From an uncultured archaeon (GTDB lineage: Archaea; Iainarchaeota; Iainarchaeia; Iainarchaeales; DTGL01), in the NCBI GenBank assembly GCA_964551725.1, contig CAZKED010000001.1, forward strand, positions 42,119 through 106,118: 64,000 bases of DNA, in the 5' to 3' direction. The translations under genes and the position numbers were made by a program. Below are positions 19,756-64,000 of the stretch, in pieces. Position 1 is the stretch's first letter. The number at the start of each line of letters is the position of its first letter. The notes beneath the pieces are model-generated. The model ran no database searches and was not told the origin of the DNA. It worked only from the letters and a program-made list of their open reading frames with translations.

Positions 19756-19760
19756 ATTAA

Positions 19761-34064: not shown

Positions 34065-34100
34065 CCACATTCACCTCTGAATTCAGCGCATAAGCACAGC

Positions 34101-34114: not shown

Positions 34115-34187
34115 CAGGAAGAATAAGGAAATTCACCTATTTAATTGTTTCTTTTTTGCGCGGCGCTTCCTGGGCGCTTCCGATTCG

Positions 34188-40293: not shown

Positions 40294-43200
40294 ATGTTCG
40301 GAAACTCACTTGGCTCCTTTTACACAAAGATTGAGGACAAATGGTATTCCGCCATAGACTGGCTTGACCGGAAAGGAATTCCTTTTTACGTTTTCACGGA
40401 TTTTCTCGAAAAGCGCGGAATTCCCTCGCTTCCTTTTTCAATCGCCGTCTTGTTTTTGCTCGTGCTATTGCTTTCCACTGTTTCTTTCGGAACAGCCGTG
40501 AATGCAACGCTTTCATTCAACATTTCAGATGCACACGGAGACCCGCTGCAGGGCGTTACAGTAACAATAACCGATGCAGCAGGAAAGCAGGTGGAAAAGA
40601 AAGCGGTAAGCGACGGCGGGAAAATTTTACTGCAGGGCGCCCCGGTCGGAGCGGTTTACGAAATAAGCGCCGCAAAGCCGGGCTATGTTCAGGATGACAC
40701 CACTGCAAAAATTGATTCTGCTTCGGTGAATGTTTACCTCACGCTCAGGGCGGACTTGCAGCTTGCAGAGGGAATGCTTTCCCTCGTGGACGAAAGAAGC
40801 GGCACGGCAGTTAGGAATCCCGTGTGCATTGTGAAATACGAGGGGCTGGACATTGACGGCAGCGTGGACAGCAAGCAGGTGATTCATTTCAGCGGCATTC
40901 CCGCGGGAGAGGAAGTGATAGTGCAGTGCACGGCGAACGGATACGAGGACCTTTCAATCCCAATCGCGTTCAGGGAAGGCGAAACAATGCAGCAGGTCAT
41001 GACACCGCTTACCGCGGCGCTGACCGGCGACTCTTTTGTTCTCGTTTCATTGTACGAGTGGACTGACGGCGAGGCAAAGCCGCTGAGCGGGGTTCGCCTT
41101 ATAATAAAGAACGCGGAAACAGGAAATACGATAAGCGACGTCAATCTCGGGGAAGACGCGGAATACGCTGAAACGCTTAAAAAGGGCACGGTCATAACAA
41201 TCACAGCGGAAAAAGAGGGCTTTATTACTGCGGTGTGGCCTGAAACCACTCTCAGGGAGGAGGAAACGCCAATTGAAATCGTGATGAGGAAAGGCGGCGA
41301 AAAGCTCGTTGTGAGGGTGAATGCCGAGGACACGGGACCTTTAAGCGGTGCAATAGTGCAGTTGTACGATGCCGCGGCTGAACTGATAAAGGAGGAAACC
41401 ACAGACTTCAGCGGCTTCGTTGAGCTTGTGGGCATGGACCCTAACGCGACGTATTACATTACGGCGTACAAGGACCTGTACGTCGCGCAGAGGAAAAAAA
41501 TAATTCCCGGGGAACTCGAGGAACTTGTTTTCACTCTTGAGTACGCGAGCCCGCAGAATTCCTCCACGCTTTCAATAAAAGTGCTCGATTCTGCTGGATT
41601 CTATGCGAACGGCGCATCGCTTTATTTTTATGAAAGAAGCGGGGAAGAAGTGCTGCCTTTGGGCATTCCAGTAAAGTACGCTGACCTGAGGGGGGAAGCG
41701 ATAGCACAGGTTGAAAAGGAAAAGCTCGTTGTTGTCGTCGCCAAGAAGGATTTGGAAGAGGGAGAGGGCGAAGCGGAAATAACGCAGAGCTCGCACGAAA
41801 TGGAAATACAGATGGAAAAACCCGTCAATTTCGTCGAGCTGAAGCTCGTGGACGAATTCGGCAATCCGGTTCCTGGAACGGCGAACATTTCAACGCAGTC
41901 CGGCGAAGAGCTTTACAGCGGGGAAATTTCAGATGCAATATGGTTCGATTCGCAGGGAAACGAAAAAGTTGTGCTCGCGGTTGAACAGGAAGGGGAAAAA
42001 ATTTACGAGGAAGAAGTGGAAGTCGACAGCAAGACGGAAATAGAAATAGAAATTCCTTTGGGAGAAGAGGCAAGAATTCCTGCAATTGAATTCCTGGGCG
42101 TGTTCAACGCAATGGACGAGGAAGTCGAGGGAATCACGCGCGGTGAATATTACTGGCTGAAATTCAGCGCCAGTCTGCCGCAGTCGGAGAAAAGCGGGGT
42201 TCATGTCAGGGTGGGAAACGACTCGCAGAAGTTCGCGGACGAACAGCGCGTGGGAATCTACGGCTTTGATTCCGCACCTGGAGACTTTTTCTTCGGGCGC
42301 AGCTACCAGCCCCCCTCGGGACAGGCAATCGACTACAAGAACCGCGGGAAAGCGGGAGAGAAAAACAAATGGGTTGAAATCTATTTCGACAACCCGGCGG
42401 ACACAGAAATAATAAGGGTGAAAGTAAAAACAGAGGAAACCTTTTCAAGGGAAGAATTCGAAGTGCACTTCAGGGCGTTCGCGAAATTCAGGGGAAAATT
42501 CTACAATTCTCCGCAGAGCACCGGGGAAATGCAGCTTTATTCCGAGACGTACAGCGAGAGCGTGAGGGTTTTCACCACACGCACGCTGTGCAGCGAGGGA
42601 CTGTGCGCCGGCTACCTGTTCAGGGACGCGGAGGGAATGGAATTCAGGGAAAACGAATTCAAGCCCATACTGGAAAGACCCTACGCGCTTGAAATAACGC
42701 TGAGCGCGAAAGAAGGGGAAAAGGTGAATCTCACAGCGAGCACGAGAGCGAATGCCGCGGCAATGGCATTCTGGGGGATTTCACTGGACGAGTTTGCAGT
42801 CGTTCCCGAGCAGGGCTACGAGCTCGCGAGCGCGGACATAGCGGACGTGCAGGTAGAGCGCGGCGAGGAAGTCAAAGCGGTTGTTTATTTCATGCCAAAG
42901 GAAACAGGGCAGGGCTATCTGGAGATATCCGTGCAGGGAACGGAGAACGAGATAAGGAAGAAATTCTACTTCGACGTGGCGGAGGAAAGAAACATAAGCA
43001 TTGAAATGCCCGGAAAAGGAAAGCTCACCCTCGGGGAAAACCTTTTCCTGCGCCTGACCGACGCGGAAACAAGCGAATTTTTGACAAACGCGAAACTCAG
43101 GCTTGAAAACATCGACACAGAGAAGATTGAAGTCTCAACCGTAGGAACGAACACGAGAAACAACGGCTTGAACGGGGAATATTCCCTTGAAACCTCGCAC

Positions 43201-46200
43201 CTCGAGCCCGGCTTCTACAAAATCGTTGCATCGTTGTACGGTTACGTGGAGGCGGAAAAGCCAGTTATCATTCTCACCGATGAAGTGCTCGAGATTGAAT
43301 CGCCCGTTGAGATAAGCATGGAGCGCTGTGCTTTGGAGGGAAAATGCGAAACCTCCGGGGAAGCGACAGCAAAAATAACCAATAACTTGGGACTGCCCGT
43401 GGAAGTAAAGGGCTTCAGGTTCGAGCACATAAGAATGCCCAACGAATTCACGCTGAGCGCGGATGTTTCCGACATACTGGAGGGAGAGAGCGCTGTCTAT
43501 ATTACCGCGGTTTTCTCGGGAATGTACGACAAGCACCTGCACGGCGAATCCGACCTGGTGATAGAGGGAAGCGTGGGAAACGTTTCCGTGGAAGCGACGG
43601 CAAGAGTGAAAGTCAGCTACAACAAGGAACTGCCGAGCGACTGCCTCACAATAGACAAGGATTCGCTGCAGGTTTTAATGCTAGGAAATGAGGGGTCTAC
43701 TGAAACCGTTTCATTCGAAGTGGAGTACTCGAGAAGGGAGGAATGCTACAGGGATTCGGCGCTGGAATTCAGCGTTTACTCCGAGGCACTGCGGTCGGAC
43801 GAGGACATCACAGTGGAGGAAACCACTTTTTCCCTTTCCCCGGGGGAAAAGAGGGACGTGAGGCTTTCAATAACAAACAATATAAAGCGCTTTTATTCCG
43901 CTTCACTGAAAAGGGAATTTGAAATATTCATTGAGTCGGCTGACATCACTAAAAGCATTCCCTTAACCGTGCTCTTAAAAGACCCGGTGTTTTTCCTTGA
44001 GACAAATGACAACATCACGCTCTGGATGAGCAAGGACGAGGAATCCGGGGAAATAAGCGGCATTGCGCCGCTGTACATGAGGAACACGGGCGAACTGCCC
44101 ATTGAAAGCCTTTCGTTTTCCATAGCGGAAAGCCCGGCGTCAATCAACATCACCGTACTGCAGGACGGGGGCAATCTCACCTATTTGACACAGCCCGCGC
44201 TGCAGGCTTATTCAGCCCGTATTCCAATGGGGGACGGAATGGCACTCTACGGGGCGCCGCTCCAGCCCGGGGAACAAGCGTCGCCGCCAAAAACAATCTA
44301 TGCGAGCACTACTTCGACAGGCATTGACAAGGGACCGCACAGGGCAATAATCGAAATACGCGGCGTGGTGAAGGGCGAGGAGCATTTCCTCAGGAACGTT
44401 GCGGTATGGATTCACGTTTCCACGCCGAAATGCCTCAAACTGTACATGACGGACACGGATTTCAGGAGCGCGGAGAGCGAGCAGGGAACGATTTCAAAAA
44501 CAGCAACGATTGAAAACAACTGCGGGGAAACCGTGAGGGAAATAACGCTCGACCCCAAAAAGTTCGGGGAGAACACTCTCAACCTAAACCCCCTGAGAAA
44601 GGCATTCCTGAGCCCGGGGGAAAAGACGGAATGGAAAGTGATAATGGAGAAAAGGGAGGATTACTCCGCGGAAACGGAATTGAGGGCTAAAGGATTCCTT
44701 GTTTCAACGCAGAGGTATATTTACTCCGACCCCATTCCCATAACAATTGCAATAGGAACGGAAGCCGAAACAAGTGCTGGACCTTCGCTTGAAGCCTTCA
44801 CAATGCCTGTGTGCGAAACGGACGAGGAAAAGGAAATACATTACCCGGACATCGCTTCCTACGAGGACAAGGACTGCGCGCAGGGATACTGCGATGCGGT
44901 GCAGTTGAGCGAATTCCTGCTGAAAAAAGCGGAGGAAAAAATACAGGCAGTGAAGCGCAGGCTTCAGGACGGCAGCTATGATGTGAGCAATTTCGACAAC
45001 TGCCAGGATTCCGCTGGACTTTGCAGTTTCACTTCCCTGGACGTAACGCCCACAGTGCTCACCGTTTACATGAACAACGACAACCTCAGCGCTGAAGTCG
45101 CGGAGCACGTGAAGGACACCGGCTCTTTCCCGGAACTCAAAGGGTTTGTTGTCGATTACTTCGATGGCACGATATCCGACCTCGTTTCAAGGGAGGGCTT
45201 TTTCGCGCCGTTCCATTTGTACATGCCGACAAACGTCACCGGCTGCGGGAAATACGTTTTCTCAGTGAAGGGCGCAGTGCAGAACATACAGGGAAAGCTC
45301 GAGGAAGACAAAATATTGATACTCATTGAGTTCACGGAGGAAAGGAAAATCACTCCAGAATGCACGAACGAAGTGCAGAACGTAATGAATTTCCTGCCCG
45401 TGGACAAAGGGTTAACGCATAGAAACAACAAGAGCGCCTGGCCCGCTACAGTGGAAGCCACAAGCGAATTGGAGGAATTGGGCAAAAAAATTGCCGATGA
45501 ATTGTTTGACGACGAGAAGCGCAGCACCACCGGCTCAGTGTCACTGAACAAGCTGAGGTTGAAATATGGTGATGAAGAACAGGGGGGCATTCTCGTAATA
45601 AAGCTCATGCGCGTTTCGAGCACCGAAGCAAGACCCAAGACTGTCGAGGCACTCATTACGCCAATGCACAGGGACAGCGCGGATGACGTAAAGGAAACGC
45701 TTGAGGAAAGCATTGTTGAGGCATTTGGCAAGCTTGCGCAGAGCTCGCAGGACCTAGACATGTGCATTGATGCACAGGGCGAGTCATTCACCCTTCTCGG
45801 GCTGGAATCCAGGGGGGAAATCTCGATTTCCGGAGAGGAAAGAATTGAACTGTACTACGAGGAGGAGGGATGCGCGGACCTGAATGTTTTCAGTTCCGTG
45901 ATGGAAAAAGTTTCGCTTAAAACAAACTGGAAGGAAATGCGCGAGGCGGGAGAGAACGCGGGCTTGAGCGACGTTTACATTAAAGTAGCGGGGGAAAGGG
46001 TGAAGGAGTATTCCAACGAGGAGCGCGTGCTCGGCGATTCCTTCAGGCTTGAAAGGAATCCCGCGGGAAACAATTACTACATGGAATTCCAGGTCTGCGC
46101 GAAAGGAGACATTGACGCGATTGACGAAGCATTCGGCAAGGAAGTGAAGGTGAGAGCGAAAAGCGCTTCCTTTGCGGGAAGGGAAATGAAAGACTGGCAT

Positions 46201-48624
46201 TCGGTGAGCATTGAATTGTGCTGGATTCACCCCTACAGCTTGCTGGACAAATTGGAGGGAGTTCACGTTGACCCGGGTGAAACAAAAACGTTTTATGCAA
46301 CGCTCAACTGGGAAGGCGACCCAGACAAAATCACCACTGCAGCGCTTGACAAGGCAAGGGCGGCAATGGAAACACTGGAAGAGGGCGACATTCCCGCTGG
46401 CGAAGCACAGGAAGGAAGCACACTGCTGCCTGCAAGCTCGGGTCCCGGAATACTCGCGGGAATGGCAGCATGCACCATAACGGATTTCGGAATAGGCGTG
46501 TTCATGTACACTCCCCTGGGCTCACTCGTTAATTCCGTGTTTGACTGCATTGTTCCCGGGCTGTGGAATTATTTGAAGACCACCACCTGGGGGACCCCCA
46601 TTGTTAAAGCGCTTACAACAGCGTGGCAAACAGTGAAAAAGATTCCCGTAATAGGACACATAATAAGCGGAGTGCAGACAGCGCTTGGATGGGTTGCCCG
46701 CGGCATAAGCAAGGCGGTAAGCGGTATTTACGGAGTAATGCTGGGCGAGCCCGGCGCTTCGGCGGAGGAAGCTACGGAAAACCTGCTTGCCTCTGGCGTA
46801 ACCGGCGTGCAGATTAATTCCGTGCGAAGGTATCTGACAAGTGAAATGGCCGGCACAAAACTGCTGGACCTTGTTTCAATAAGACCCGGGCACGAGGGAC
46901 AGCTGACGACAGCCGGCAGAGCAATCGCGAAGGAAACCGCGGACAGGGTGGCAGCGGATTATGTCGACGTAATATTCACCGGTGCTTCCTCAAGCGCCGA
47001 TGACATTATTAAAGGGGTTAGGACGGAGCTAGCTAAAGCCCTACAGTCCGAAATGGAAACCGAGTTGAGGAGAGTGGGCAACACTGTGCACAGCAACCAT
47101 GCAGCCGCAAAGCTTTTCGGCGGAGACGAACTGGGAAGAGGTTACAGAACAGCAAGCGTTTCAAGCATTATTGACGATGCCTCCAAGGGTCCCTGGTCTA
47201 AAGCGTACGAAAAGCTCTGGTCCTCAAAGTTCGCGGCAAGAGGCACTACAAAAAAGAGCATGATGGACTGGGTGCAGCACGCGGACGTGAAGGGCGCGGA
47301 GATTGCCAACAGGATTTTGCAGGCAAAGGCGAGCGTTTTGGATGACCTGGCAGGACCGGCTTTGGTTGAAGGCGTGACATTCCCAGATTTTGGAATTGAT
47401 GATATTCACGCAACAGGCGCTCGCGACAAGGTCGTCGATGCTGTGACAAACAGCATTTCTGGCAAGCTTAAAAGCAAGGGAATAAACCTGACCAGCACCA
47501 TGCAAACGAATCTGAGGGAATCTGTTGAAACGGCAGTAGGTGCTGTGTACGCAGAAACTCCCCATATACCAGGCAACAGACCACTGGTTCCAAACCCAGA
47601 AGCCGGAGTAATACGGGGCAACAACGCCAAGGTCGCCGCGCAGATGGCGCTTGATGATTTCGTTTCAAAGTACGGGGACAACCTGCTCAGAGCTTCACCC
47701 GAAGCGCTGAAGGCAATGGCCCAGAAACTTGGAATAACGGTGGATGAATTGTTAGAGCTTGGCGCGAAAAAGACTTTCTGGCAGAAATGGTTCACAGCAA
47801 AAGGATGGGCTGAAAGGGGGCGCAGGCTCGTGAACTGGAGGAACCTGAAGGAATTCGGAAAAGCCGCTGGATTGGGAATGCTTGCCAACTGGGTCGGCGG
47901 CTTCGTGGCGGAAGCGGTTAACGCGGAAGCACCCGAGGAAGCCGAGGCGGGGATTGCAGCGCCGACTATTGAGGGCGAACCCGAATTCCTGGAAGGATAT
48001 ATTGTGAGCTCGCCCGAATACGTGTACAAGCACCGCACTTACAGGGTGGATGTTACCGGCGGCAGGGATGGAAAGCCGCGGTATTCTCTCAACATGGTTG
48101 ACACTCCGGAAGAAAGGGAGGAAATGCGCGAGGCAATTGCTGAGAATCCTGACATTGTGCTGACCGACTCGTGCAGTGAATCTCCCACCAGAGACATGGG
48201 CGGGGTGTTTATCGCAAGGCTTGTTCCGGACTTCGAAAAAGAAGGGGATTACGCGCGCGCCTATTACCTGTACGGGGACGCTTTCAGCAGCACCGCCACT
48301 TACTATCAGCTGGACGATTCACTGCTGATGGCTGTTTTGATGGTTTCGCCGGAGAAAATAAGGGATTGTGGCATACCGAATGACTGGTTCAAGCAGGCAG
48401 ACGAAATACAGAAGCAGTCCATTGACTGCGCGGGCAAAAAACTGTGGGAGAACAGCGCAAGCAACCTGAGAAGCCAGCCCGGCGATTACCACGAGAACCT
48501 TGAAGGAGTGCTCGAGGGAATGGTCGGCAGTTCTGCCTTTGAAAGCACGGAAGACTGGACCAATTATATTGACATGGTTTACGGGAACGACGAGCGCTGG
48601 AATGAAAATTACCAGCCCGATTGA
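40294..48624 (+). CDS. Giant surface protein paralogue 1 (2776 aa). It has a conserved N-terminal leader plus TM, CarboxypepD_reg/Ig-like repeats, a YCDAVQ domain, and a C-terminal roughly 730-aa extension with hydrophobic glycine-zipper-like segments.
   Basis: The N-terminus reads MFGNSLGSFYTKIEDKWYSAIDWLDRKGIPFYVFTDFLEKRGIPSLPFSIAVLFLLVLLL. Transthyretin-like repeats recur (LSFNISDAHGDPLQGVTVTITDAAGK...). The hydrophobic segments are GPGILAGMAACTITDFGIGVFMYTPLGSLV and IPVIGHIISGVQTALGWVARGISKAVSGIYGVMLG. Confidence 0.8.
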   Translation: MFGNSLGSFYTKIEDKWYSAIDWLDRKGIPFYVFTDFLEKRGIPSLPFSIAVLFLLVLLLSTVSFGTAVNATLSFNISDAHGDPLQGVTVTITDAAGKQVEKKAVSDGGKILLQGAPVGAVYEISAAKPGYVQDDTTAKIDSASVNVYLTLRADLQLAEGMLSLVDERSGTAVRNPVCIVKYEGLDIDGSVDSKQVIHFSGIPAGEEVIVQCTANGYEDLSIPIAFREGETMQQVMTPLTAALTGDSFVLVSLYEWTDGEAKPLSGVRLIIKNAETGNTISDVNLGEDAEYAETLKKGTVITITAEKEGFITAVWPETTLREEETPIEIVMRKGGEKLVVRVNAEDTGPLSGAIVQLYDAAAELIKEETTDFSGFVELVGMDPNATYYITAYKDLYVAQRKKIIPGELEELVFTLEYASPQNSSTLSIKVLDSAGFYANGASLYFYERSGEEVLPLGIPVKYADLRGEAIAQVEKEKLVVVVAKKDLEEGEGEAEITQSSHEMEIQMEKPVNFVELKLVDEFGNPVPGTANISTQSGEELYSGEISDAIWFDSQGNEKVVLAVEQEGEKIYEEEVEVDSKTEIEIEIPLGEEARIPAIEFLGVFNAMDEEVEGITRGEYYWLKFSASLPQSEKSGVHVRVGNDSQKFADEQRVGIYGFDSAPGDFFFGRSYQPPSGQAIDYKNRGKAGEKNKWVEIYFDNPADTEIIRVKVKTEETFSREEFEVHFRAFAKFRGKFYNSPQSTGEMQLYSETYSESVRVFTTRTLCSEGLCAGYLFRDAEGMEFRENEFKPILERPYALEITLSAKEGEKVNLTASTRANAAAMAFWGISLDEFAVVPEQGYELASADIADVQVERGEEVKAVVYFMPKETGQGYLEISVQGTENEIRKKFYFDVAEERNISIEMPGKGKLTLGENLFLRLTDAETSEFLTNAKLRLENIDTEKIEVSTVGTNTRNNGLNGEYSLETSHLEPGFYKIVASLYGYVEAEKPVIILTDEVLEIESPVEISMERCALEGKCETSGEATAKITNNLGLPVEVKGFRFEHIRMPNEFTLSADVSDILEGESAVYITAVFSGMYDKHLHGESDLVIEGSVGNVSVEATARVKVSYNKELPSDCLTIDKDSLQVLMLGNEGSTETVSFEVEYSRREECYRDSALEFSVYSEALRSDEDITVEETTFSLSPGEKRDVRLSITNNIKRFYSASLKREFEIFIESADITKSIPLTVLLKDPVFFLETNDNITLWMSKDEESGEISGIAPLYMRNTGELPIESLSFSIAESPASINITVLQDGGNLTYLTQPALQAYSARIPMGDGMALYGAPLQPGEQASPPKTIYASTTSTGIDKGPHRAIIEIRGVVKGEEHFLRNVAVWIHVSTPKCLKLYMTDTDFRSAESEQGTISKTATIENNCGETVREITLDPKKFGENTLNLNPLRKAFLSPGEKTEWKVIMEKREDYSAETELRAKGFLVSTQRYIYSDPIPITIAIGTEAETSAGPSLEAFTMPVCETDEEKEIHYPDIASYEDKDCAQGYCDAVQLSEFLLKKAEEKIQAVKRRLQDGSYDVSNFDNCQDSAGLCSFTSLDVTPTVLTVYMNNDNLSAEVAEHVKDTGSFPELKGFVVDYFDGTISDLVSREGFFAPFHLYMPTNVTGCGKYVFSVKGAVQNIQGKLEEDKILILIEFTEERKITPECTNEVQNVMNFLPVDKGLTHRNNKSAWPATVEATSELEELGKKIADELFDDEKRSTTGSVSLNKLRLKYGDEEQGGILVIKLMRVSSTEARPKTVEALITPMHRDSADDVKETLEESIVEAFGKLAQSSQDLDMCIDAQGESFTLLGLESRGEISISGEERIELYYEEEGCADLNVFSSVMEKVSLKTNWKEMREAGENAGLSDVYIKVAGERVKEYSNEERVLGDSFRLERNPAGNNYYMEFQVCAKGDIDAIDEAFGKEVKVRAKSASFAGREMKDWHSVSIELCWIHPYSLLDKLEGVHVDPGETKTFYATLNWEGDPDKITTAALDKARAAMETLEEGDIPAGEAQEGSTLLPASSGPGILAGMAACTITDFGIGVFMYTPLGSLVNSVFDCIVPGLWNYLKTTTWGTPIVKALTTAWQTVKKIPVIGHIISGVQTALGWVARGISKAVSGIYGVMLGEPGASAEEATENLLASGVTGVQINSVRRYLTSEMAGTKLLDLVSIRPGHEGQLTTAGRAIAKETADRVAADYVDVIFTGASSSADDIIKGVRTELAKALQSEMETELRRVGNTVHSNHAAAKLFGGDELGRGYRTASVSSIIDDASKGPWSKAYEKLWSSKFAARGTTKKSMMDWVQHADVKGAEIANRILQAKASVLDDLAGPALVEGVTFPDFGIDDIHATGARDKVVDAVTNSISGKLKSKGINLTSTMQTNLRESVETAVGAVYAETPHIPGNRPLVPNPEAGVIRGNNAKVAAQMALDDFVSKYGDNLLRASPEALKAMAQKLGITVDELLELGAKKTFWQKWFTAKGWAERGRRLVNWRNLKEFGKAAGLGMLANWVGGFVAEAVNAEAPEEAEAGIAAPTIEGEPEFLEGYIVSSPEYVYKHRTYRVDVTGGRDGKPRYSLNMVDTPEEREEMREAIAENPDIVLTDSCSESPTRDMGGVFIARLVPDFEKEGDYARAYYLYGDAFSSTATYYQLDDSLLMAVLMVSPEKIRDCGIPNDWFKQADEIQKQSIDCAGKKLWENSASNLRSQPGDYHENLEGVLEGMVGSSAFESTEDWTNYIDMVYGNDERWNENYQPD

Positions 48625-48636
48625 AGGGGGAAAAAC

Positions 48637-57831: not shown

Positions 57832-57923
57832 GGGCAAAACAGCGATTGAAAACGTTTAATAATGTAAGGAGACATTAAAATAAATTGGAGGAATAACCAG
57901 GAAAAGGATTTGGGGTAATTTGT

Positions 57924-60900
57924 ATGGGTGTTGTTGATTCTGCTAAGGATTTGTACTTCCATCTGGAGGACCGCTATTATAGGCTGATTGACAGGATTAA
58001 TTCCCGCGTGCTGTACAAAATAGTCGACAAAGTAGACAGCGTTGTGCCGTCGTTTGCCCTGGTTTTGCTCGTGATTTTTGTTTTAATCGCGCTGGGGATA
58101 ATGTTCGTGCTCACGCAGGGCATTTCCCTGCCTGTTGCAACCTCTGAGCTTGTCGTGAAAGTACAGGACGAAAAAGGCAATCCGTTGAAAGGCGTGGGAG
58201 TGGAATTCACTGCGGCTGATGGAACGGAGCACTACAAGACCACTGATGCAGAGGGAAAAACCCCTGCATTGGGGTTTGCGACGGGAAGCGAGGTGGAAAT
58301 AACGCTGAGCAAGGACGGCTATGCCCCAAAACCGTATTCCGCGAAATTCAAAGTGAGCGAGCCTTTTGTGGAAAAACTCGTTGAACTCGAGGAAGAAAAG
58401 GCATTCGATTACATTAAGTTCAAAATAATGGATGAATTGTTCCAGCCCGTGGACAAGGTATGGGTTGAATTCGACTGCTCGGAAAGCAGTGCCGAGGATC
58501 CGGCGGGAATGTTTTCAAGCCAGGGAATCGTCGAAGTGGCTGTTCCCAAAAACTGCGGGGAACTGAGGGTGGATGCTTCCGCTCCTGGCTATGAGGAGCT
58601 GACAGCCGAGGAAGTGGTTGACAACGCCACCATATTCCTGCAGGAAAAGGAGGATGAAAGAGGCACTATTGTTGTCTCGCTTACATCGCACGGAGAGCTT
58701 GCCGCGGACGAGCAGATAACCGTCAGCCTTTACAAGGACACCGGGGCAGCGGACGGAATAAATGTTGAATCAAAGGAAACAACCACAGGACAGGCAGAGT
58801 TTTCCGCTGCACCAGGAACCTATTACGTGAAAAGCCTTTCAACAGCAAAGTACACCGTGAAAGAATCCCTGCCCTTCGAACTCGAAGCGCGGGCAAGGAA
58901 GGATGTTACGCTTGAACTCGAGGAAAGGGTTATAGGAAAAATAAAGGTCAAAGTGCTTGACGAGAAAACAGGAAAAGCGGTGGAAAACGCCGGCGTTACA
59001 TTCAAGAAAGGAACACAGCAAGTATTCTACCAGGAAACAAACGAGCAGGGGATAGTGGAATTCAACCTGCACGAGGACATCGGCTATACGCTTATAGTCA
59101 ACCACGAGGATTACTGCATTGTGCGCAGGGAAAACGTGAGGAAAAGCAACGATACGCTGGAAATAGAAATAGAGAAGTACACGGGACAGTGCGGCGGCGT
59201 ACTCCTTGCAAGGGTGCTCGACGACGAAACCGGCAAGGGAATGGAGCACGCTACAGTAGGACTTTACGATGAGCAGGGCTACTCTGCGGGATTCAAGCCG
59301 CTTTTGACGGACATCAACGGGGAAGCGGAATTCGCTGGGGTTGAAACCGGAGACTACCAGGTGTTCGCGTACAAGGGAAGCGCGAGCGGCTGGAGCGATA
59401 TAAAGAAATTCGTGAGGAGGGAGGCACAAAAGACCGTTTACACTGTGAGCCTTACCATTCCTCTCGGGGCAATAAGGGTGAGGGTGCTCGACGACGAACT
59501 TGAACCGCTGCCCTTTGCGGACGTTGCACTGAAGAGAGCATTCGACAACAAATTACTGCAGGGACCAATGCCGGTGGAGGACGCGAACGGCTGGATTGAA
59601 TTCTTGGAGAAATCAGGCGAGGACGTGTTTGCCGTTGTTTCAATGGAAGGATACACCGATTTTACTTCAAGTTCGGTCAGGGTGCTGCCCAATTCAACGC
59701 GGGAAATTGTCGCAGAACTCGAACCCGAAATAATTTCCGGGGAAATCGAGGCGGAATTCCTGGGATTGTACAAGAACGGGAGGAAGGCAACAATTCTGGG
59801 CGCGGGACAGGAGTACGATGCGAGATTCCAGCTGAGGATTCCCAAAAACCAGGACTACGAATTCATAGGAATGCATATCAGGACTGGCAAGGAAAACACA
59901 ATGGAAAAGGACATGGTGTTCATTAAGGAGCACAGCGCTCCGGCAGCGCCCATAATCTCAAAGGGCACTTCCTTCAATCCGGAGGAGGGCTTCGATTACG
60001 ATTCACAGTTCAAGACCGCTGACGGGGCAAAATGGATGAATTTCAAGTGGGGCAAGTTTTCATCGGGAAAATTCAACGTTGAAGTTACAGTAAAAGTAAA
60101 GGACTTGGCAAAACAGGGCGAGCAGGTGCCCGTTTACTGGCGCGCGTGGGCGAAAAAGGAAGACGACGGCGTGGTAAGGGACCCTGAAGACCAAACGCTG
60201 GGCTCAACAATGTCGCAGAACGAGCTGTACGCCAACACCGACAGCAAATTATTCCAGGTCGGAATTGAAACGCTGTGCGCAGACAAGTGGTGCTTTGCCG
60301 GCAGCATTCTTGACGTCGAGGACGAAATAATCCAGTCCGTTTCCGACTCCTACGGCGCAATAGTGGGAAAACAGTACAGGCTCTCGTTCAAAATATTGAA
60401 CGACAGTCCTTTTGAAACGGACATTTTCGACAACGCAAAAATGCGCGTTGTGACAAGGAATTCCGCAATTCTGCTCCAAGACTACCAAATAATAGGCCCG
60501 CAGGGGAGCAAAACAGAGGGAAGCGCTAATGCTTCCTCCCTAGACTGGATTGAAATCGGCGACCTCACGCCAAGCAAGGACGTTTCCGGCACGATTTATT
60601 TCACTCCCAAGTCCGCGGTGAGTTCATCGCTATTGCTGCAGGTGCACTCGCGTTACAGGATTGTTTTCGAGAAGGAAATAACAGTCGACAGCGCTGCAGC
60701 GAACGAAATGGACGTGAAGTTCAAGAAAGAGGGCGAATACGTTTCGGACTACGGCTTGCTCCCGAGCGGAGTGGAGCAGACGCTGACGGTGAAGGTGTTC
60801 GACAAAGCAAGCGAACTGGAACTGGAGGGTGCGACGGTAAAAATAATTGACCGCTTCGGGTCAGTGCTCGGGGAGGAAAAGACCACGTTCTTCGGAATCG

Positions 60901-63900
60901 CGGACGTCGTAATGCCGGTGCTCAAGCCAGGGGAAAAGCTCACAATGAGCGTGCAGAAAGCTAATTACATGCCGCTGGAGAAGGCGCTTTCCGTTGACGA
61001 CAGAGTGCTTGAAGTCGAGCCCGCTGCGTTAAACGTTACGCTTAACGCGCAGACCGCGCCGGAAAAAAGCATTAACGTAACGCTCAAAAACAAGACAAGC
61101 CTGGAGCTTGAAATCGAATGGCTCGAGGTCACCGGCGACTTCCAGGACCTGGTGGACAAGGAAAAAACAGGGCAGTGGCTTTACTCGCAGTATTCAGGGG
61201 AAAAAATATCGGGAAAGGAATCAAGGAACATAGTGCTCAAAATGTTTTTGACCGACCTGGGGAAATCCGTAAAGGAAACCAGGACACTGAAGGGAAAGTT
61301 CAATGCAAGGGTATTCTCCTCGGGGCAGACATGGGAGGTTTCAAAGGACCTCACAGTAGTAATAGGACTCGGGGGGGAAGTGGATGATACAGCGTGCTTT
61401 TCACTCAGCACGCATTCATGGAAAGCCGCAACTGAAATTTCCCCCAGAAACAAGGACGTAATGATAGTGAACAACTGCTCGGTGGACGGAAAGCCGGTTG
61501 AACTCCAAAACCTTAGCGCGAAAATAGTGTGGGAAAGCAATCACTTGGGCGAATTCAAATTCGGAATTGACGGAGAAAACAGCATTGAAATCAGACCCGG
61601 GTTTTTCAAAATATTCAGGAAGAGCATGGGAAAAGAGGAAACCCTGCCGGGCATTCTTTCGTTCATTCCCGACGGCGGAAACCTCGGAACGGCAAAGGCG
61701 ACAGTGATAGTGCAGGCAAAGAATCCCACGCAGTCAGGCGAACAACTGCTGGAGGACTCAATTGAAGTGGAAATAACCGTTGTTTCTCTGGATTCCTGCC
61801 TGAGGGTGAGCAGGGATTTGCTTAAACTGGCACCCAACGACGAGGGAACATTTGAAATAAGCACGGGAGACTGCGGTGGAAATGTGGACATAAGGCTTAT
61901 TTCCGAGCTCACCGTGGGCAACAAGGAGATAACAATGGGAAGCAACGACTCGCATACAGTCACAGTGCTTTCAGAGGAAAGGATTCCGGGACAGTATCCG
62001 ATCTACATTAAATTCAGGGCCGCCGGCAAAAACGAGTACGAAGTAGGAAAACTCGTAAGAGTGCTCATCGAGCCGACGGAGGGATGCATCAGATTGAACC
62101 GCTATGAGTACGATATTTACGATAGCCCGGACAACCCCTACGACGGGTTTGACGTGGGAAAAATAATCAATTCCTGCCCGAGCCAGAGGGTTGCGGGCGT
62201 GGTGAGATTCAACGAAAAGAATTTGTGCAAGGCGGTAAGGAACGGCTTTGTAGGCGGACTGATTGGAATGATTTACGGTGGACTGCAAGCCAGCAACATG
62301 GGCAGGGGCTTTTTCGGAATCGGACCGACATGCAGCGAACAGGGCGGCGTAATATGCGGCACCGGAACAAAATGCTCCGTGGGAACAAAAATTGTTTACG
62401 GAAAGGAATGCTGCATTGACGGCGAATGCGTGAAAGTTGAAACCGCCGCAACGCAGCCCGCGGAAGAACCTGAAGCAGAACCAGAGGAACCAGCGGAAGA
62501 AGCGGAAGAACCCGGAGAAGCGCCCGCCGGAGAGCCGGCGGAAGGGCCTGCTTTCGGCACATGCGCTGAAATGGGCGGCGAAGAATGCGAACCTAACCAG
62601 GACTGCATGGACGGCGAAACCAAGCTTCCGTTTACCGTTGCGTCTGACATAATAAACTGTTGCATTGGAGGCACTTGCACTGACAGGGAAGAGGAACAGG
62701 GAGAAGAGCCAACACTCCAGTCATGCGCTGAATTGGGCGGAGAGCCCTGCAACGGCGGAACATGCGCTCCGCCTTTGACCGGGATAACTGACGCTTCATA
62801 CCCCCAGATGGTTGATTCACTGGACGGCGAATGCTGTGTCGGGGGCAGGTGCATTACTGCAGGGGAAGAATTAACCTGTGAGGAGCAGGGCGGAAGCCTT
62901 TGCCCCGGCGGAATATGCCAGGTTTATCAGTGCGACGGGGAGGGCTGCAATCCGGTAAACGTTGAGCCAACAATTGTAGCAGGAGAAGAATGCTGCCTTG
63001 AGGGAGCATGCGTGTATGAGGCGCAGGGAAAAGAGGAATCCGGCTCCGCGGCAGGAATGGTTGCTCTCGGGGCAATCGATGTAAGCTCGGTGCTGGGACC
63101 GCTGGCTGAAGGATTAGGCGGGCTTCTGGACATTGACAACTTTTTGGAAGGATTGTTCGTCGGATGGGTAGCGAACTCGGCGTACAATTACCTCATGGTG
63201 CAGCAGGAAGGCAAGGTCGCATTCGACGTTGTCGCGGACGACCTCGCAATCACTGCGCTGCGCGTGCTCTATCCGAGCGGGCGCGAGGACAACGACGCGC
63301 CAGGAATTAGTGCAGAGCTGGGCGCGGAGAAAACCGAAAGGTCAACGGAACTCGAACTCGGGAGAAGGGAAACAGAAATAATATTCGAAAATTCCGATGG
63401 AATAACTCAGGAAAATCCCGTAAGCCCGATTTACAGGATTTTGAAAGTGGAGGGAGAGAAAAGGGAGTACGAAACGGATTACGGGGGAGATGCAGGAGAA
63501 GAGGGATTTTTCACCTCGCTCTGGAACGCTATAAGGTTTTGGACGGAATGTCCGGAAACGGAATTCAGCGAGGAGGACGCAGAACAATTCATAGTGGACG
63601 GCGGCGACCTCGAGGTAAAGGAATCCGAGGAATACTTCCAGAAATTCCACTTACAGTTCAATTCATACGAGCCCGAAGAGCCTACTCCGACACCTGTTCC
63701 CGGGGAAAGCTGCAAGATAGGAACGAGGGTCGGAAAAACCGGCGAGGAAGCAATGCCCAGCATTCTGCTCAAGTGGAACTGGAGCGACATACAGGAGAAT
63801 ACCTGCGACGAAGGCGGCGGGGAAACTTACTGTGATGCAACGCAGTTCAGCATTGAATTGCTGAAAAGGATTCACGGGATTGAGGAACTGCTGGCAGGGC

Positions 63901-64000
63901 AGACTTTCACCTGCCCTTCCGAGAGCGGGGTGCTTGAGGACGTGTCACAGGCATTGAGCGAGAGCGAGGAGGACGTTGCAATCACGCGAGTGAAAGTGGA
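57924..64000 (+). CDS. Giant surface protein paralogue 3, 3'-truncated by the window end (more than 2025 aa). It is absent from the ORF track because no stop codon falls in the window.
   Basis: The frame stays open from the ATG at 57924 to nt 64000; I checked this by hand translation at several points. The N-terminus is MGVVDSAKDLYFHLEDRYYRLIDRINSRVLYKIVDKVDSVVPSFALVLLVIFVLIALG. It has CarboxypepD_reg-like repeats (RVLDDETGKGMEHATVGLYDEQG...), four six-Cys modules, and GETYCDATQFSIELL near 63820. Only short antisense ORFs are listed here. Confidence 0.75.
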   Translation, partial: MGVVDSAKDLYFHLEDRYYRLIDRINSRVLYKIVDKVDSVVPSFALVLLVIFVLIALGIMFVLTQGISLPVATSELVVKVQDEKGNPLKGVGVEFTAADGTEHYKTTDAEGKTPALGFATGSEVEITLSKDGYAPKPYSAKFKVSEPFVEKLVELEEEKAFDYIKFKIMDELFQPVDKVWVEFDCSESSAEDPAGMFSSQGIVEVAVPKNCGELRVDASAPGYEELTAEEVVDNATIFLQEKEDERGTIVVSLTSHGELAADEQITVSLYKDTGAADGINVESKETTTGQAEFSAAPGTYYVKSLSTAKYTVKESLPFELEARARKDVTLELEERVIGKIKVKVLDEKTGKAVENAGVTFKKGTQQVFYQETNEQGIVEFNLHEDIGYTLIVNHEDYCIVRRENVRKSNDTLEIEIEKYTGQCGGVLLARVLDDETGKGMEHATVGLYDEQGYSAGFKPLLTDINGEAEFAGVETGDYQVFAYKGSASGWSDIKKFVRREAQKTVYTVSLTIPLGAIRVRVLDDELEPLPFADVALKRAFDNKLLQGPMPVEDANGWIEFLEKSGEDVFAVVSMEGYTDFTSSSVRVLPNSTREIVAELEPEIISGEIEAEFLGLYKNGRKATILGAGQEYDARFQLRIPKNQDYEFIGMHIRTGKENTMEKDMVFIKEHSAPAAPIISKGTSFNPEEGFDYDSQFKTADGAKWMNFKWGKFSSGKFNVEVTVKVKDLAKQGEQVPVYWRAWAKKEDDGVVRDPEDQTLGSTMSQNELYANTDSKLFQVGIETLCADKWCFAGSILDVEDEIIQSVSDSYGAIVGKQYRLSFKILNDSPFETDIFDNAKMRVVTRNSAILLQDYQIIGPQGSKTEGSANASSLDWIEIGDLTPSKDVSGTIYFTPKSAVSSSLLLQVHSRYRIVFEKEITVDSAAANEMDVKFKKEGEYVSDYGLLPSGVEQTLTVKVFDKASELELEGATVKIIDRFGSVLGEEKTTFFGIADVVMPVLKPGEKLTMSVQKANYMPLEKALSVDDRVLEVEPAALNVTLNAQTAPEKSINVTLKNKTSLELEIEWLEVTGDFQDLVDKEKTGQWLYSQYSGEKISGKESRNIVLKMFLTDLGKSVKETRTLKGKFNARVFSSGQTWEVSKDLTVVIGLGGEVDDTACFSLSTHSWKAATEISPRNKDVMIVNNCSVDGKPVELQNLSAKIVWESNHLGEFKFGIDGENSIEIRPGFFKIFRKSMGKEETLPGILSFIPDGGNLGTAKATVIVQAKNPTQSGEQLLEDSIEVEITVVSLDSCLRVSRDLLKLAPNDEGTFEISTGDCGGNVDIRLISELTVGNKEITMGSNDSHTVTVLSEERIPGQYPIYIKFRAAGKNEYEVGKLVRVLIEPTEGCIRLNRYEYDIYDSPDNPYDGFDVGKIINSCPSQRVAGVVRFNEKNLCKAVRNGFVGGLIGMIYGGLQASNMGRGFFGIGPTCSEQGGVICGTGTKCSVGTKIVYGKECCIDGECVKVETAATQPAEEPEAEPEEPAEEAEEPGEAPAGEPAEGPAFGTCAEMGGEECEPNQDCMDGETKLPFTVASDIINCCIGGTCTDREEEQGEEPTLQSCAELGGEPCNGGTCAPPLTGITDASYPQMVDSLDGECCVGGRCITAGEELTCEEQGGSLCPGGICQVYQCDGEGCNPVNVEPTIVAGEECCLEGACVYEAQGKEESGSAAGMVALGAIDVSSVLGPLAEGLGGLLDIDNFLEGLFVGWVANSAYNYLMVQQEGKVAFDVVADDLAITALRVLYPSGREDNDAPGISAELGAEKTERSTELELGRRETEIIFENSDGITQENPVSPIYRILKVEGEKREYETDYGGDAGEEGFFTSLWNAIRFWTECPETEFSEEDAEQFIVDGGDLEVKESEEYFQKFHLQFNSYEPEEPTPTPVPGESCKIGTRVGKTGEEAMPSILLKWNWSDIQENTCDEGGGETYCDATQFSIELLKRIHGIEELLAGQTFTCPSESGVLEDVSQALSESEEDVAITRVKV
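62331..63010 (+). repeat. Four tandem six-cysteine modules, C[SAE]E.GG..C..G.C...(8-20)...ECC..G.C, separated by acidic Pro/Glu linkers
   Basis: Read directly by translation: CSEQGGVICGTGTKCSVGTKIVYGKECCIDGECV; CAEMGGEECEPNQDCMDGE...NCCIGGTCT; CAELGGEPCNGGTCAPP...DGECCVGGRCI; CEEQGGSLCPGGICQVYQCDGEGCNP...GEECCLEGACV. Confidence 0.6.

What the first reader, a model, noticed from the sequence alone, without database searches (positions are those of the whole stretch)
40294..64000. Three tandem giant paralogues share a long conserved N-terminal leader ending in RGIPS before a hydrophobic helix, resembling a class-III signal
Seen in sequence. The ORFs starting at 40294, 50629 and 57924 begin with alignable leaders of about 45 aa:
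- MFGNSLGSFYTKIEDKWYSAIDWLDRKGIPFYVFTDFLEKRGIPS|LPFSIAVLFLLVLLL
- MGVVDSIKDFYFRLEEKYYKFVDWLDTKHFPYYKFVDFVESRGIPS|FPLSIAGIAVIALLL
- MGVVDSAKDLYFHLEDRYYRLIDRINSRVLYKIVDKVDSVVPS|FALVLLVIFVL
The ORFs then continue for 2000-2800 aa of extracellular-type repeats.

Established knowledge. Archaeal prepilin peptidases (PibD/FlaK/EppA) cut class-III signals after [K/R]-[G/A/S] immediately before a hydrophobic helix. Known leaders are usually shorter than about 25 aa.

Inference. These giants may be giant pilin-like substrates, or tip adhesins, of the adjacent type IV pilus-like machinery. The conserved leader could serve as a recognition domain. I do not know of giant proteins with this leader architecture. 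Their position next to a full Tad-like operon, seven pilins and a sortase-like gene makes this the most distinctive locus in the window.
Basis: partly seen in the sequence, partly recalled or inferred. Interest (0 to 1): 0.8.

Follow-up and report, generated by a model that had tools for sequence, protein, structure and literature searches.

The report
Conserved N-terminal anchor of giant archaeal proteins
The giant surface proteins of this DPANN archaeon begin with a real, strongly conserved 45-residue module ahead of their single membrane helix. It is an unannotated family-wide structural module, probably cytoplasmic, not a standard pilin-type cleavable signal, and it sits in a conserved gene cluster with a pilus-type motor and a sortase-like enzyme.

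Summary
The three ORFs, their N-termini and their paralogy are as described.

The leader is not unique to this locus. A 3-sequence profile finds 915 protein clusters, always at the N-terminus and mostly on proteins of 1600-3000 aa. Named sources are Iainarchaeota and Micrarchaeota MAGs. No Pfam, NCBIfam or PDB family covers it.

The module is a tandem repeat, Y-x-h-[LV]-D-x-[LI]-[DE]-x-[KR]-G-[IV]-P twice. The second copy ends in the invariant [IV]-P-[ST]-[FL] at the start of the membrane helix. AlphaFold gives helix, turn, helix, turn, a 23-residue TM helix, a linker, then a beta-sandwich. No pilin fold appears.

The class III reading fails for the family:
- A charged -2 plus G/A/S at -1 occurs in only 43% of leaders.
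- It is near-universal in G1-type, rare in G2-type and absent in G3-type.
- The invariant residues lie inside the leader, not at the putative cut site.
- The co-encoded 572-aa pilin-like protein keeps G/A at -1 in 39/39 orthologues.

The link to pilus-type machinery is real. The order ATPase / sortase-like gene / G1 / pilin-like gene / G2 / G3 recurs in dozens of contigs.

Best reading: an uncleaved signal anchor carrying a new cytoplasmic docking or assembly domain. The function is inferred, not shown.

The parts
40294..48624 (+). G1, giant surface protein (2776 aa). Leader is residues 1-45 (40294-40428). Membrane helix is about residues 46-66 (40429-40491).
   Evidence: ORF and translation. 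CarboxypepD_reg and SpaA domains after the TM. Single strong N-terminal TM. Orthologue P0004. Called as a 2776-aa gene on public contigs.
48639..50357 (+). 572-aa pilin-like protein with a canonical short class III signal, MNERA|FNLFTALLGFVLIIL. It starts at GTG 48639, 15 nt after the G1 stop, behind a purine-rich aagggggg stretch.
   Evidence: Sequence. 39 distinct orthologous N-termini have G/A at -1 in 39/39 and a charged -2 in 35/39, and the nearest upstream Met gives a leader of 4-20 aa in the 35 where one is found. A homologue follows 16 of 18 G1-type genes that have enough downstream sequence.
50629..57831 (+). G2, giant surface protein (2400 aa). Leader is residues 1-46 (50629-50766). 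TM helix is residues 46-68 in the model.
   Evidence: AlphaFold2 of residues 1-158 at pLDDT 94.3 gives H3-27, H32-41, H46-68, a linker 69-76 and a beta-sandwich 77-153. Orthologue P0001.
57924..64000 (+). G3, giant surface protein. It runs off the window and is 2570 aa in full. Leader is residues 1-43 (57924-58052) and ends SVVPS, with no Arg-Gly. The TM follows.
   Evidence: Orthologue P0002 is 2502 aa. G3-type leaders in other genomes never have G/A/S at -1 (0/12).
39585..40217 (+). Small exosortase/archaeosortase-family membrane protein (210 aa), immediately upstream of G1.
   Evidence: NCBIfam signature TIGR04178 scores 29.7 bits against a cutoff of 23; all subfamily models score far below their cutoffs. 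C105, R147 and H167 are invariant in 27 homologues. It lies upstream of 16/18 G1-type genes elsewhere.
37171..39441 (-). Secretion/pilus-assembly ATPase (756 aa), divergent from the sortase-like gene.
   Evidence: Pfam T2SSE 6.7e-17. Nearest solved relatives are archaeal GspE 2oap, CpaF and FlaI. NCBIfam FlaI, TadA and BasE models score below cutoff. It is 60-67% identical in most related contigs.
34641..37160 (-). 839-849-aa polytopic membrane protein in the position of a PilC/FlaJ/TadC platform protein. Its identity is not confirmed.
   Evidence: No Pfam T2SSF hit even at E<=10. It co-occurs next to the ATPase in related contigs at 36-57% identity.
30051..34586 (-). Row of seven small pilin-like genes plus a 57-aa ORF. 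Most have short leaders ending [KR]-G directly before Q or F and a hydrophobic helix.
   Evidence: Translations. Gene calls on the public contig. No Pfam or NCBIfam hit.

Best explanation
The roughly 45-residue leader is not a cleavable pilin-type signal. It is a small folded module that stays on the cytoplasmic side of an N-terminal signal anchor.

The module has two amphipathic, acidic and aromatic helices. Each ends in a [KR]-G-[IV]-P turn; together they form a 13-residue motif duplicated in tandem. The second turn runs directly into the invariant [IV]-P-[ST]-[FL] cap of a single 20-23-residue membrane helix. Past that helix, a short Gly/Ser/Pro linker leads into about 2000-2700 residues that begin with beta-sandwich domains and are presumably extracellular.

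Each giant is therefore tethered N-in/C-out.

Inferred function: the module is a family-specific docking or assembly handle. Through it the co-conserved giants G1-G4 would be recognised by a shared partner at the inner face of the membrane, or would associate with each other there. The prime candidate partner is the co-clustered pilus-type ATPase and its large membrane partner. The connection of the giants to any fibre would more plausibly run through the genuine class III pilin-like protein encoded right after G1 than through their own N-termini.

What is shown and what is inferred:
- Shown: the architecture, its conservation and the synteny.
- Predicted: the topology.
- Inferred: the docking role.
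For: Family.
- An exhaustive profile search finds 915 cluster representatives at E<=1e-3 and 190 at <=1e-10.
- The match is at the N-terminus in nearly all of the 150 listed. A few start 15-38 residues in, which probably reflects start codons called too far upstream (inference).
- Complete proteins are mostly 1600-3000 aa.
- Named members are Iainarchaeota and Micrarchaeota MAGs.

Conservation pattern in 152 leaders.
- Y11 98%, E15 99%, D23 98%, P45 100%, Y33 91%, D37 90%.
- The putative -1 position is only 61% G.
- Columns 19-31 and 33-45 share one consensus, Y-x-h-[LV]-D-x-[LI]-[DE]-x-[KR]-G-[IV]-P.
- G and N alternate at the turn position, which fits a helix C-cap (general structural knowledge).

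Structure.
- AlphaFold2 of the leader plus TM (pLDDT 85.7) and of residues 1-158 (pLDDT 94.3) gives H3-27, a turn, H32-41, a turn, H46-68, a linker and a beta-sandwich.
- Foldseek returns transthyretin-like/CarboxypepD_reg and other beta-sandwich folds (some hits, such as catechol dioxygenases, align over longer stretches), and no type IV pilin.

Topology.
- The leader carries 5.2 K+R on average. The 15 residues after the TM carry 0.5.
- Extracellular-type domains follow the TM.

Selection.
- The leader is 50-57% identical between paralogues, against 23-28% for the rest.
- It is 86% identical to the L001 orthologue, against 52% for the first 237 residues.

Internal control.
- The co-encoded pilin-like protein keeps G/A at -1 in 39/39 orthologues behind a short leader, 4-20 residues wherever an upstream Met can be assigned.

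Synteny.
- ATPase, sortase-like gene, G1, pilin-like gene, G2 and G3 recur in that order across dozens of contigs.
Against: - No experiment or dedicated topology/cleavage predictor was available. Cytoplasmic location and lack of cleavage are predictions.
- G1 and G2 of this window, and 24/25 G1-type leaders elsewhere, do satisfy the minimal class III rule of a charged -2 and G at -1. Processing of that subset cannot be excluded.
- The leader is net acidic (-2.6), so 'positive-inside' rests on K+R counts alone.
- Cleavage by signal peptidase I after the helix cannot be excluded.
- Leader-bearing proteins also occur away from any pilus genes within 10 kb (L030 clearly; L024 apparently). That weakens a strictly pilus-specific docking role.
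- No partner was identified.
Confidence: 0.55

Rival explanations
1. Class III (prepilin-type) signal. A PibD/FlaK-type peptidase cuts after [KR]-G. The giants are then handled as pilin-like substrates or tip subunits by the adjacent machinery. This may hold only for the G1 clade.
For: - G1 (KRG|IPS) and G2 (SRG|IPS) have a charged -2 and G at -1 directly before the hydrophobic helix.
- 24/25 G1-type leaders in other genomes keep [KR]-G.
- The cluster encodes a T2SSE ATPase, about seven small class III pilin-like genes and a large class III protein directly after G1, so a prepilin peptidase must exist in the genome.
- Class III signals are known on non-pilin proteins such as sugar-binding proteins (PMC2910488).
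Against: - The site is present in only 43% of 152 leaders, in 3/22 G2-type and in 0/12 G3-type. G3 of this window lacks it.
- Invariant residues lie in the leader body, not at -1.
- The first repeat's KG, which is not next to a TM, is equally conserved in the G1 class at 27/27. A structural reason is therefore sufficient.
- The leader is 42-46 aa and the best-conserved part of the protein. The true class III proteins of the same cluster have leaders of 4-20 aa.
- Pro occupies +2 and usually +5.
- The helix is 23 residues and is followed by a linker and a beta-sandwich. No pilin fold appears.
- A FlaFind-like pattern written from memory rejects all three giants. It accepts four of the seven small pilin-like ORFs (one only at an internal start) and misses the 572-aa class III protein, so it is a weak test.
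Confidence: 0.12
2. Extended Sec signal peptide. The helix is the H-region of a very long signal sequence that signal peptidase I removes. The conserved extension tunes targeting or translocation of very large passengers, as proposed for the long signal sequences of autotransporters and two-partner secretion proteins. The giants would then be released or held by other means.
For: - A conserved N-terminal extension found almost only on very large secreted or surface proteins parallels the long autotransporter/TPS signal sequences (PMC2805444).
- Small residues (G, S, A) are common just after the helix, with column 67 at G 48%.
- The giants have no other membrane anchor at their C-termini.
Against: - The hydrophobic stretch is 20-23 residues, the length of a membrane span. 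That is longer than a typical H-region (general knowledge).
- No conserved small-x-small site follows it.
- The extension is acidic rather than basic.
- There is no Pfam hit to ESPR or any other signal-extension family.
- With no C-terminal anchor, cleavage would leave 2400-2800-aa proteins untethered.
Confidence: 0.2
3. N-terminal sorting signal for the adjacent exosortase/archaeosortase-like enzyme. The [IV]-P-[ST]-[FL]-P motif plus the TM helix would be recognised and cut, as a mirror image of PEP-CTERM or PGF-CTERM.
For: - The sortase-like gene sits directly upstream of G1 in 16/18 informative contigs.
- It keeps an invariant Cys, Arg and His.
- A Pro-containing motif abuts the TM helix and is the most conserved element of the giants.
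Against: - Known substrates carry the motif, a TM helix and a basic cluster at the C-terminus, with the motif on the outer face (PMC6098224).
- Here the motif is on the predicted cytoplasmic face and no basic cluster follows the helix.
- By hydropathy and reading of the sequence only, the enzyme's Cys/Arg/His lie toward the outer face.
- Other proteins encoded in or near the cluster have conventional C-terminal TM-plus-basic tails and are better candidate substrates. One is the 1505-aa protein 24224-28741, which ends ...LLIGAVLLVRRRILIVRKKN.
Confidence: 0.05

Closest known systems
Archaeal class III (prepilin-type) signal peptides of pilins, archaellins and bindosome sugar-binding proteins, cleaved by PibD/FlaK/EppA
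   Same: An N-terminal segment lies on the cytoplasmic side, immediately before a single hydrophobic helix. The genes sit beside a T2SSE-type ATPase and pilin genes. G1 and G2 of this window have [KR]-G at the junction.
   Different: - The leader is 42-46 aa, against 4-20 aa in the true class III proteins of the same cluster.
- It is the most conserved part of the protein.
- G/A/S at -1 is not conserved across the family: 61% overall and 0/12 in G3-type.
- No long alpha1 helix or pilin head domain is predicted.
Long or extended signal sequences (ESPR-type) of autotransporters and two-partner secretion proteins in Proteobacteria
   Same: A conserved N-terminal extension precedes the hydrophobic core and is largely restricted to very large surface proteins.
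   Different: - Different domain of life, with no sequence relationship and no Pfam hit.
- The extension here is acidic and is predicted to form two helices.
- The hydrophobic segment has TM length.
- Cleavage has not been shown.
Type II (N-in/C-out) signal-anchor membrane proteins
   Same: There is a single N-terminal membrane span, more K+R on the N-side, and extracellular-type domains after the span.
   Different: The cytoplasmic stub is a conserved, duplicated helix-turn module shared by hundreds of giant proteins. It is not a short variable tail.
Large or modular minor pilins, such as TadG-like pseudopilins and the modular pilins of Gram-positive type IV pili (from memory)
   Same: This applies to the 572-aa protein after G1, not to the giants. 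It has a short class III signal, G/A|F-[NT]-L-F-T-A-L, followed by a large extra domain.
   Different: Its fold and function were not tested here, and it has no Pfam or NCBIfam hit.
Exosortase/archaeosortase systems (PEP-CTERM, PGF-CTERM and others)
   Same: A small family member with an invariant Cys/Arg/His is encoded next to a dedicated giant surface protein, as is typical for single-target exosortases.
   Different: - The giants have no C-terminal tripartite signal.
- Archaeosortases were described in Euryarchaeota (PMC6098224), whereas this one is in DPANN lineages.
- It fits none of the curated subfamilies.

Membership tests
Class III (prepilin-type) signal peptide | G/A/S at position -1, directly before the hydrophobic domain (PMC4371748) | tested here: not met
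   Window: G1 has G, G2 has G, G3 has V. Family: 93/152 (61%). By class: G1-type 25/25, G2-type 5/22, G3-type 0/12. Control pilin-like protein: 39/39. The feature is met only in a subset, so it does not define the family.
Class III (prepilin-type) signal peptide | Charged residue at -2, critical in archaea (PMC4371748) | tested here: not met
   Window: G1 has R, G2 has R, G3 has S/V. A charged -2 together with G/A/S at -1 occurs in 65/152 (43%).
Class III (prepilin-type) signal peptide | Short leader whose body is poorly conserved (own knowledge; leaders are usually under about 25 aa) | tested here: not met
   The leader is 42-46 aa. Y11, E15, D23 and P45 are 98-100% conserved, and the leader is more conserved than the ectodomain. 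Class III proteins of the same cluster have leaders of 4-20 aa.
Class III (prepilin-type) signal peptide | Actual cleavage by an A24 aspartic prepilin peptidase encoded in the genome | not testable with these tools
   None of the window proteins scanned against Pfam hit Peptidase_A24. The rest of the genome is not available. The canonical class III genes in the cluster imply that a peptidase exists.
Type IV pilin fold | Long N-terminal alpha1 helix whose C-terminal half packs on a beta-sheet head domain (own knowledge) | tested here: not met
   AlphaFold2 at pLDDT 94.3 gives a 23-residue helix (46-68), an 8-residue linker, then an independent transthyretin-like beta-sandwich. Foldseek against the PDB finds no type IV pilin.
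Exosortase/archaeosortase substrate | C-terminal tripartite signal of motif, TM helix and basic cluster (PMC6098224) | tested here: not met
   There is no C-terminal TM in G1, G2, the end of G3 on the public contig, or orthologues P0001, P0002 and P0004.
Exosortase/archaeosortase enzyme family (gene 39585-40217) | Match to the family signature model, with conserved Cys and Arg (plus His) | tested here: met
   TIGR04178 scores 29.7 bits against a cutoff of 23. C105, R147 and H167 are 100% conserved in 27 homologues. The XrtH, XrtX, ArtD and XrtG subfamily models score far below their cutoffs, so the subfamily is unassigned.
ESPR / extended signal peptide region (Pfam) | Sequence match to the curated family | tested here: not met
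   No Pfam hit covers residues 1-70 of any giant at E<=0.01. Scanning 71 leaders at E<=1 gives only sub-threshold motif hits to Ish1.
Type II signal-anchor membrane protein | Single N-terminal span of TM length, more K+R on the N-side, extracellular-type domains on the C-side, no cleavage | tested here: inconclusive
   Span of 20-23 residues. K+R is 5.2 before the span against 0.5 after it. CarboxypepD_reg and Ig-like domains follow. Absence of cleavage could not be tested.

The most novel reading that the evidence does not exclude
The duplicated helix-turn module would be a new kind of archaeal surface-protein signal. It would act as a cytoplasmic docking handle through which a dedicated type IV pilus-like motor recognises giant N-anchored adhesins. 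That motor would be the highly conserved 756-aa ATPase plus the 840-aa membrane protein. It would assemble or mechanically operate the giants together with the co-encoded 572-aa class III pilin-like protein. The G1 clade, the only one that keeps [KR]-G, might additionally be processed by the prepilin peptidase. This would define an undescribed cell-surface apparatus of Iainarchaeota and Micrarchaeota, possibly used for attachment to other cells.
Probability: 0.2. Interest if true: 0.85.

Novelty: new variant of a known kind. Interest (0 to 1): 0.6.

Why it matters
DPANN archaea are thought to live attached to other cells, yet how their surface machinery is built is largely unknown.

This work defines a large family of giant surface proteins that no curated library covers. 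The family has at least 915 clusters at 50% identity. Its members share a distinctive N-terminal module, and in many genomes they sit in one conserved gene cluster with:
- a pilus-type ATPase;
- pilin-like genes, including a large one;
- a sortase-like enzyme from a family so far described in Euryarchaeota.

The module gives a simple sequence handle for finding these proteins and the cluster in metagenomes. It also sets up a sharp, testable question: is the handle cleaved, and what binds it?

The result carries a methodological caution too. A [KR]-G before a hydrophobic helix is not enough to call a class III signal.

Tried and rejected
- The word-indexed protein search with the 3-leader profile found nothing at E<=0.01. 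With 71 leaders it returned only short fragments. The exhaustive search was needed.
It was redone with 10 closer leaders.
- No curated or solved relative of the leader was found in Pfam, NCBIfam, the PDB sequence profile or Foldseek on the 66-residue model.
- Weak Pfam Ish1 hits cover only the 12-14-residue 'LDWLDxKGIPVY' stretch. The best is E 0.0011 at 18 bits, against a cutoff of 26.6. I treat this as a motif resemblance, not homology.
- I tested whether the internal hydrophobic region of G1 (about residues 2040-2110) is an internal sortase-type tripartite signal. It is only moderately hydrophobic, has no basic cluster and shows only a loosely conserved FDC[IL]xP patch, so I rejected it.
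- The search for the sortase-like protein's relatives in the word-indexed database gave 3 hits, which was uninformative.
- Walking upstream of the window to look for a prepilin peptidase found only another giant of 3338 aa with NosD/beta-helix domains.
- Literature searches (DPANN + archaeosortase; Micrarchaeota/Iainarchaeota + pili; DPANN giant proteins) found no description of this leader or cluster.
- The 849-aa membrane protein could not be confirmed as a PilC/FlaJ/TadC homologue. It has no T2SSF hit at E<=10.

Full report
**1. Checking the observation**

The three + strand ORFs exist as stated. G1 is 40294-48624 (2776 aa). G2 is 50629-57831 (2400 aa; the ORF opens three codons earlier at GTG 50620). 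G3 starts at 57924 and runs off the window. The same sequence lies on public metagenome contigs, where G3 is a 2570-aa gene. The N-termini read exactly as quoted.

The proteins are paralogues. BLASTP gives G2/G3 2e-104, G1/G2 5e-28 and G1/G3 4e-16, at 23-28% identity. The leaders are 50-57% identical: G1/G2 4e-15 and G2/G3 6e-16. The G1/G3 leader pair alone is not significant, at E 0.04. No other leader copy occurs in the window.

Each giant has one strong N-terminal hydrophobic segment. G1 also has a weaker internal one near residue 2053. Pfam sees only CarboxypepD_reg, Big_1, SpaA and bMG3-type beta-sandwich domains after the helix. Nothing matches the leader itself. NCBIfam likewise finds nothing on it.

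Corrections to the finding:
- G3 ends in SVVPS, not RGIPS.
- A pilin-like gene lies between G1 and G2.
- A fourth giant of 2325 aa follows G3 beyond the window. Its leader is shorter and degenerate: MSLGENLRELYYSAMDSLLGFFERFGWKK, then a TM.

**2. The leader defines a large family that no curated library covers**

An exhaustive HMM search with the three leaders against 1.84 billion cluster representatives found 915 proteins at E<=1e-3 and 190 at E<=1e-10. In nearly all of the 150 listed the match is at the N-terminus. A few start 15-38 residues in, which probably reflects start codons called too far upstream. Complete proteins are mostly 1600-3000 aa; shorter entries may be contig fragments.

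P0004, P0001 and P0002 are orthologues of G1, G2 and G3. Sources name members only as 'hypothetical protein' or 'carboxypeptidase regulatory-like domain-containing protein', from Candidatus Micrarchaeota, Diapherotrites or 'archaeon'.

A scan of one genome per GTDB species returned 31 loci. Nearly all came from 'Candidatus Iainarchaeum', Micrarchaeota or unclassified archaeal MAGs. The closest, L001, is an Iainarchaeum MAG. The organism is therefore a DPANN archaeon, probably Iainarchaeota.

**3. Anatomy of the module**

I aligned 152 leaders.
- Near-invariant positions: Y11 98%, E15 99%, D23 98%, P45 100%.
- Strongly conserved positions: D16, K17, Y/W18, Y/F19, L25, K28, G29, P31, Y33 (91%), D37 (90%), E40, S46, F47, P48.
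- Columns 19-31 and 33-45 share one consensus with identical spacing: Y-x-h-[LV]-D-x-[LI]-[DE]-x-[KR]-G-[IV]-P.

The module is thus an N-terminal helix extension plus a tandem duplication of a 13-residue helix-turn motif. The second copy runs into [IV]-P-[ST]-[FL]-[PA] and the membrane helix. That junction is present in 149 of 150 database hits.

AlphaFold2 agrees. For the leader plus TM (71 sequences, pLDDT 85.7) and for residues 1-158 of G2 (38 sequences, pLDDT 94.3), the model has these elements:
- helix 3-27;
- turn 28-31;
- helix 32-41;
- turn 42-45;
- helix 46-68;
- linker 69-76;
- beta-sandwich 77-153.

Helices 1 and 2 are amphipathic, with a hydrophobic moment of about 0.5. The leader carries 5.2 K+R and 7.9 D+E on average, while the 15 residues after the TM carry 0.5 K+R. 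Together with the extracellular-type domains that follow, this predicts an N-in/C-out orientation.

**4. Test of the class III reading**

According to PMC4371748, all prepilin-type processing needs G/A/S at -1, and archaeal peptidases also need a charged -2.

| Set | Result |
|---|---|
| 152 leaders, -1 position | G 61%, N 20%, deleted 18% |
| 152 leaders, charged -2 with G/A/S at -1 | 65 (43%) |
| G1-type leaders, 25 distinct, compatible pair | 24/25 |
| G2-type leaders, 22 distinct, compatible pair | 3/22 (mostly x-N) |
| G3-type leaders, 12 distinct, compatible pair | 0/12 |
| G1-type, KG of the first repeat (not next to a TM), second extraction of 27 | 27/27 |

Because the first-repeat KG is kept as strictly as the second, a structural reason explains the conservation. 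The G/N alternation at the turn is what a helix C-cap would show (general structural knowledge).

The cluster supplies its own positive control. The protein encoded right after G1 really starts at GTG 48639, which gives MNERA|FNLFTALLGF. Its 39 distinct orthologous N-termini have leaders of 4-20 residues. G/A occupies -1 in 39/39 and a charged residue occupies -2 in 35/39. Most of the small pilin-like genes at 30051-34586 likewise carry short ...[KR]-G|Q/F signals.

The helix after the junction is only a membrane span followed by an independent beta-sandwich. Foldseek returns transthyretin-like/CarboxypepD_reg and other beta-sandwich folds, and no type IV pilin.

I conclude that the family-defining feature is the folded leader and the IPSF cap, not a peptidase site. 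Processing of the G1 clade, or of G1 and G2 here, cannot be excluded. I put that at about 0.12.

**5. The link to pilus-type machinery is real**

I ran tblastn with the window's proteins against 89 related loci. The order pilin genes / large membrane protein / ATPase (all leftward), then sortase-like gene / G1 / pilin-like gene / G2 / G3 (all rightward), recurs widely.
- Of 18 G1-type starts with at least 4 kb upstream, 16 have the sortase-like gene on the same strand.
- 16 of those 18 have the ATPase, divergently oriented in 15.
- Of 18 G1-type starts with at least 10 kb downstream, 16 have the pilin-like gene 8.3-9.4 kb after the G1 start.
- In most of these contigs the ATPase is 60-67% identical, while the giants are 22-37% identical in nearly all loci (59% in the closest, L001).

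The ATPase is T2SSE-type. Its nearest solved relatives are archaeal GspE 2oap, CpaF and FlaI. The 839-849-aa membrane protein next to it could not be confirmed as a platform protein.

The sortase-like gene passes the exosortase/archaeosortase signature model. It keeps C105, R147 and H167 in all 27 homologues. The giants lack the C-terminal tripartite signal that such enzymes recognise (PMC6098224). The junction motif of the giants is also predicted to lie on the opposite face of the membrane. Other proteins encoded in or near the cluster with C-terminal TM-plus-basic tails are better candidate substrates.

Leader-bearing proteins also occur away from pilus genes: L030 clearly, and L024 apparently. 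The module is therefore not strictly confined to this cluster.

**6. Most likely mechanism**

*Shown:* a conserved, duplicated helix-turn module, an invariant Pro-containing cap, a single TM-length helix, a beta-sandwich ectodomain, stronger selection on the leader than on the rest of the protein, and conserved synteny.

*Predicted:* the leader is cytoplasmic and the giants are N-anchored.

*Inferred:* the module is a docking or assembly handle, used in one of two ways.
- A shared partner at the inner membrane face recognises it. The best candidate is the co-conserved ATPase and its membrane partner.
- It brings the four co-conserved giants together.

Any attachment to a fibre would be mediated by the true class III 572-aa protein that directly follows G1.

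Rivals are an extended Sec signal peptide cleaved by signal peptidase I (0.2), a class III signal (0.12) and an N-terminal sortase signal (0.05).

**7. Comparison with known systems, and novelty**

The module resembles class III signals in position and genomic company, but it fails their defining features as a family. It resembles the long autotransporter/TPS signal sequences (PMC2805444) in being a conserved extension on giant surface proteins, but it shares no sequence and has a TM-length hydrophobic core. It is closest to a type II signal anchor carrying a new cytoplasmic domain.

No Pfam, NCBIfam or PDB relative was found. The only trace is a sub-threshold motif resemblance to Ish1 repeats. 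Literature searches found no description of the leader or the cluster.

I rate it a new variant of a known kind. The object is real and well defined, and no curated library describes it. Interest: 0.6.

Noticed in passing
window 17195-20702 (+): A second, Tad-like locus. Its T2SSE ATPase (597 aa) carries an N-terminal 2x[4Fe-4S] ferredoxin-type domain (residues ~31-114). Two T2SSF-domain membrane proteins follow. A ferredoxin-ATPase fusion in a pilus/secretion ATPase is unusual.
   Followed up: no
beyond the window end; L092 25035-27203: A fourth giant (2325 aa) follows G3. It keeps only the first helix of the leader (MSLGENLRELYYSAMDSLLGFFERFGWKK, then a TM) and lacks both GIP turns and the IPSF cap.
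   Followed up: partly
window 39585-40217 (+): An exosortase/archaeosortase-family protein in a DPANN archaeon. C105, R147 and H167 are invariant in 27 homologues. It fits no curated subfamily and is conserved next to G1-type genes. The family was described for Euryarchaeota and bacteria (PMC6098224).
   Followed up: partly
window 24224-28741 (-), 15432-17075 (+), 1-2262 (+): Three large surface proteins end in a TM helix plus a basic tail. Examples are ...PSLPENALELLFFLSLLIGAVLLVRRRILIVRKKN and a tail with a long poly-Lys run in the 547-aa protein. They are possible substrates of the sortase-like enzyme. The ORF at 37-2262 is the C-terminal part of a 3338-aa NosD/beta-helix giant.
   Followed up: no
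window 48622-48641: The G1 stop (48622-48624) is followed 15 nt later by the GTG start of the 572-aa class III pilin-like gene, behind a purine-rich aagggggg stretch. The two genes are adjacent in most related contigs. This suggests coupled expression and a physical partnership.
   Followed up: partly
window 46400-46650 (G1 residues ~2040-2110): G1-type giants share a moderately hydrophobic, Cys-containing internal region (FDC[IL]xP) about 700 residues from the C-terminus. It is not a TM-plus-basic sorting signal, and its role is unknown.
   Followed up: partly
leader residues 21-34 of many family members (in G2, about 50689-50730): The 'LDWLDxKGIPVY' stretch gives weak, sub-threshold hits to the fungal Ish1 repeat (PF10281) in 8 of 71 leaders. 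The best is E 0.0011 at 18 bits, against a cutoff of 26.6.
   Followed up: partly
window 5987-15409 (+): A further 3140-aa secreted protein has a conventional signal-peptide-like N-terminus and no Pfam hit on record. This 64-kb window therefore encodes at least six proteins longer than 1500 aa.
   Followed up: no
window 34641-37190 (-): The 839-849-aa polytopic membrane protein beside the ATPase is conserved in the cluster at 36-57% identity elsewhere. It has no detectable T2SSF domain even at E<=10, so it may be a very divergent or different platform protein.
   Followed up: partly
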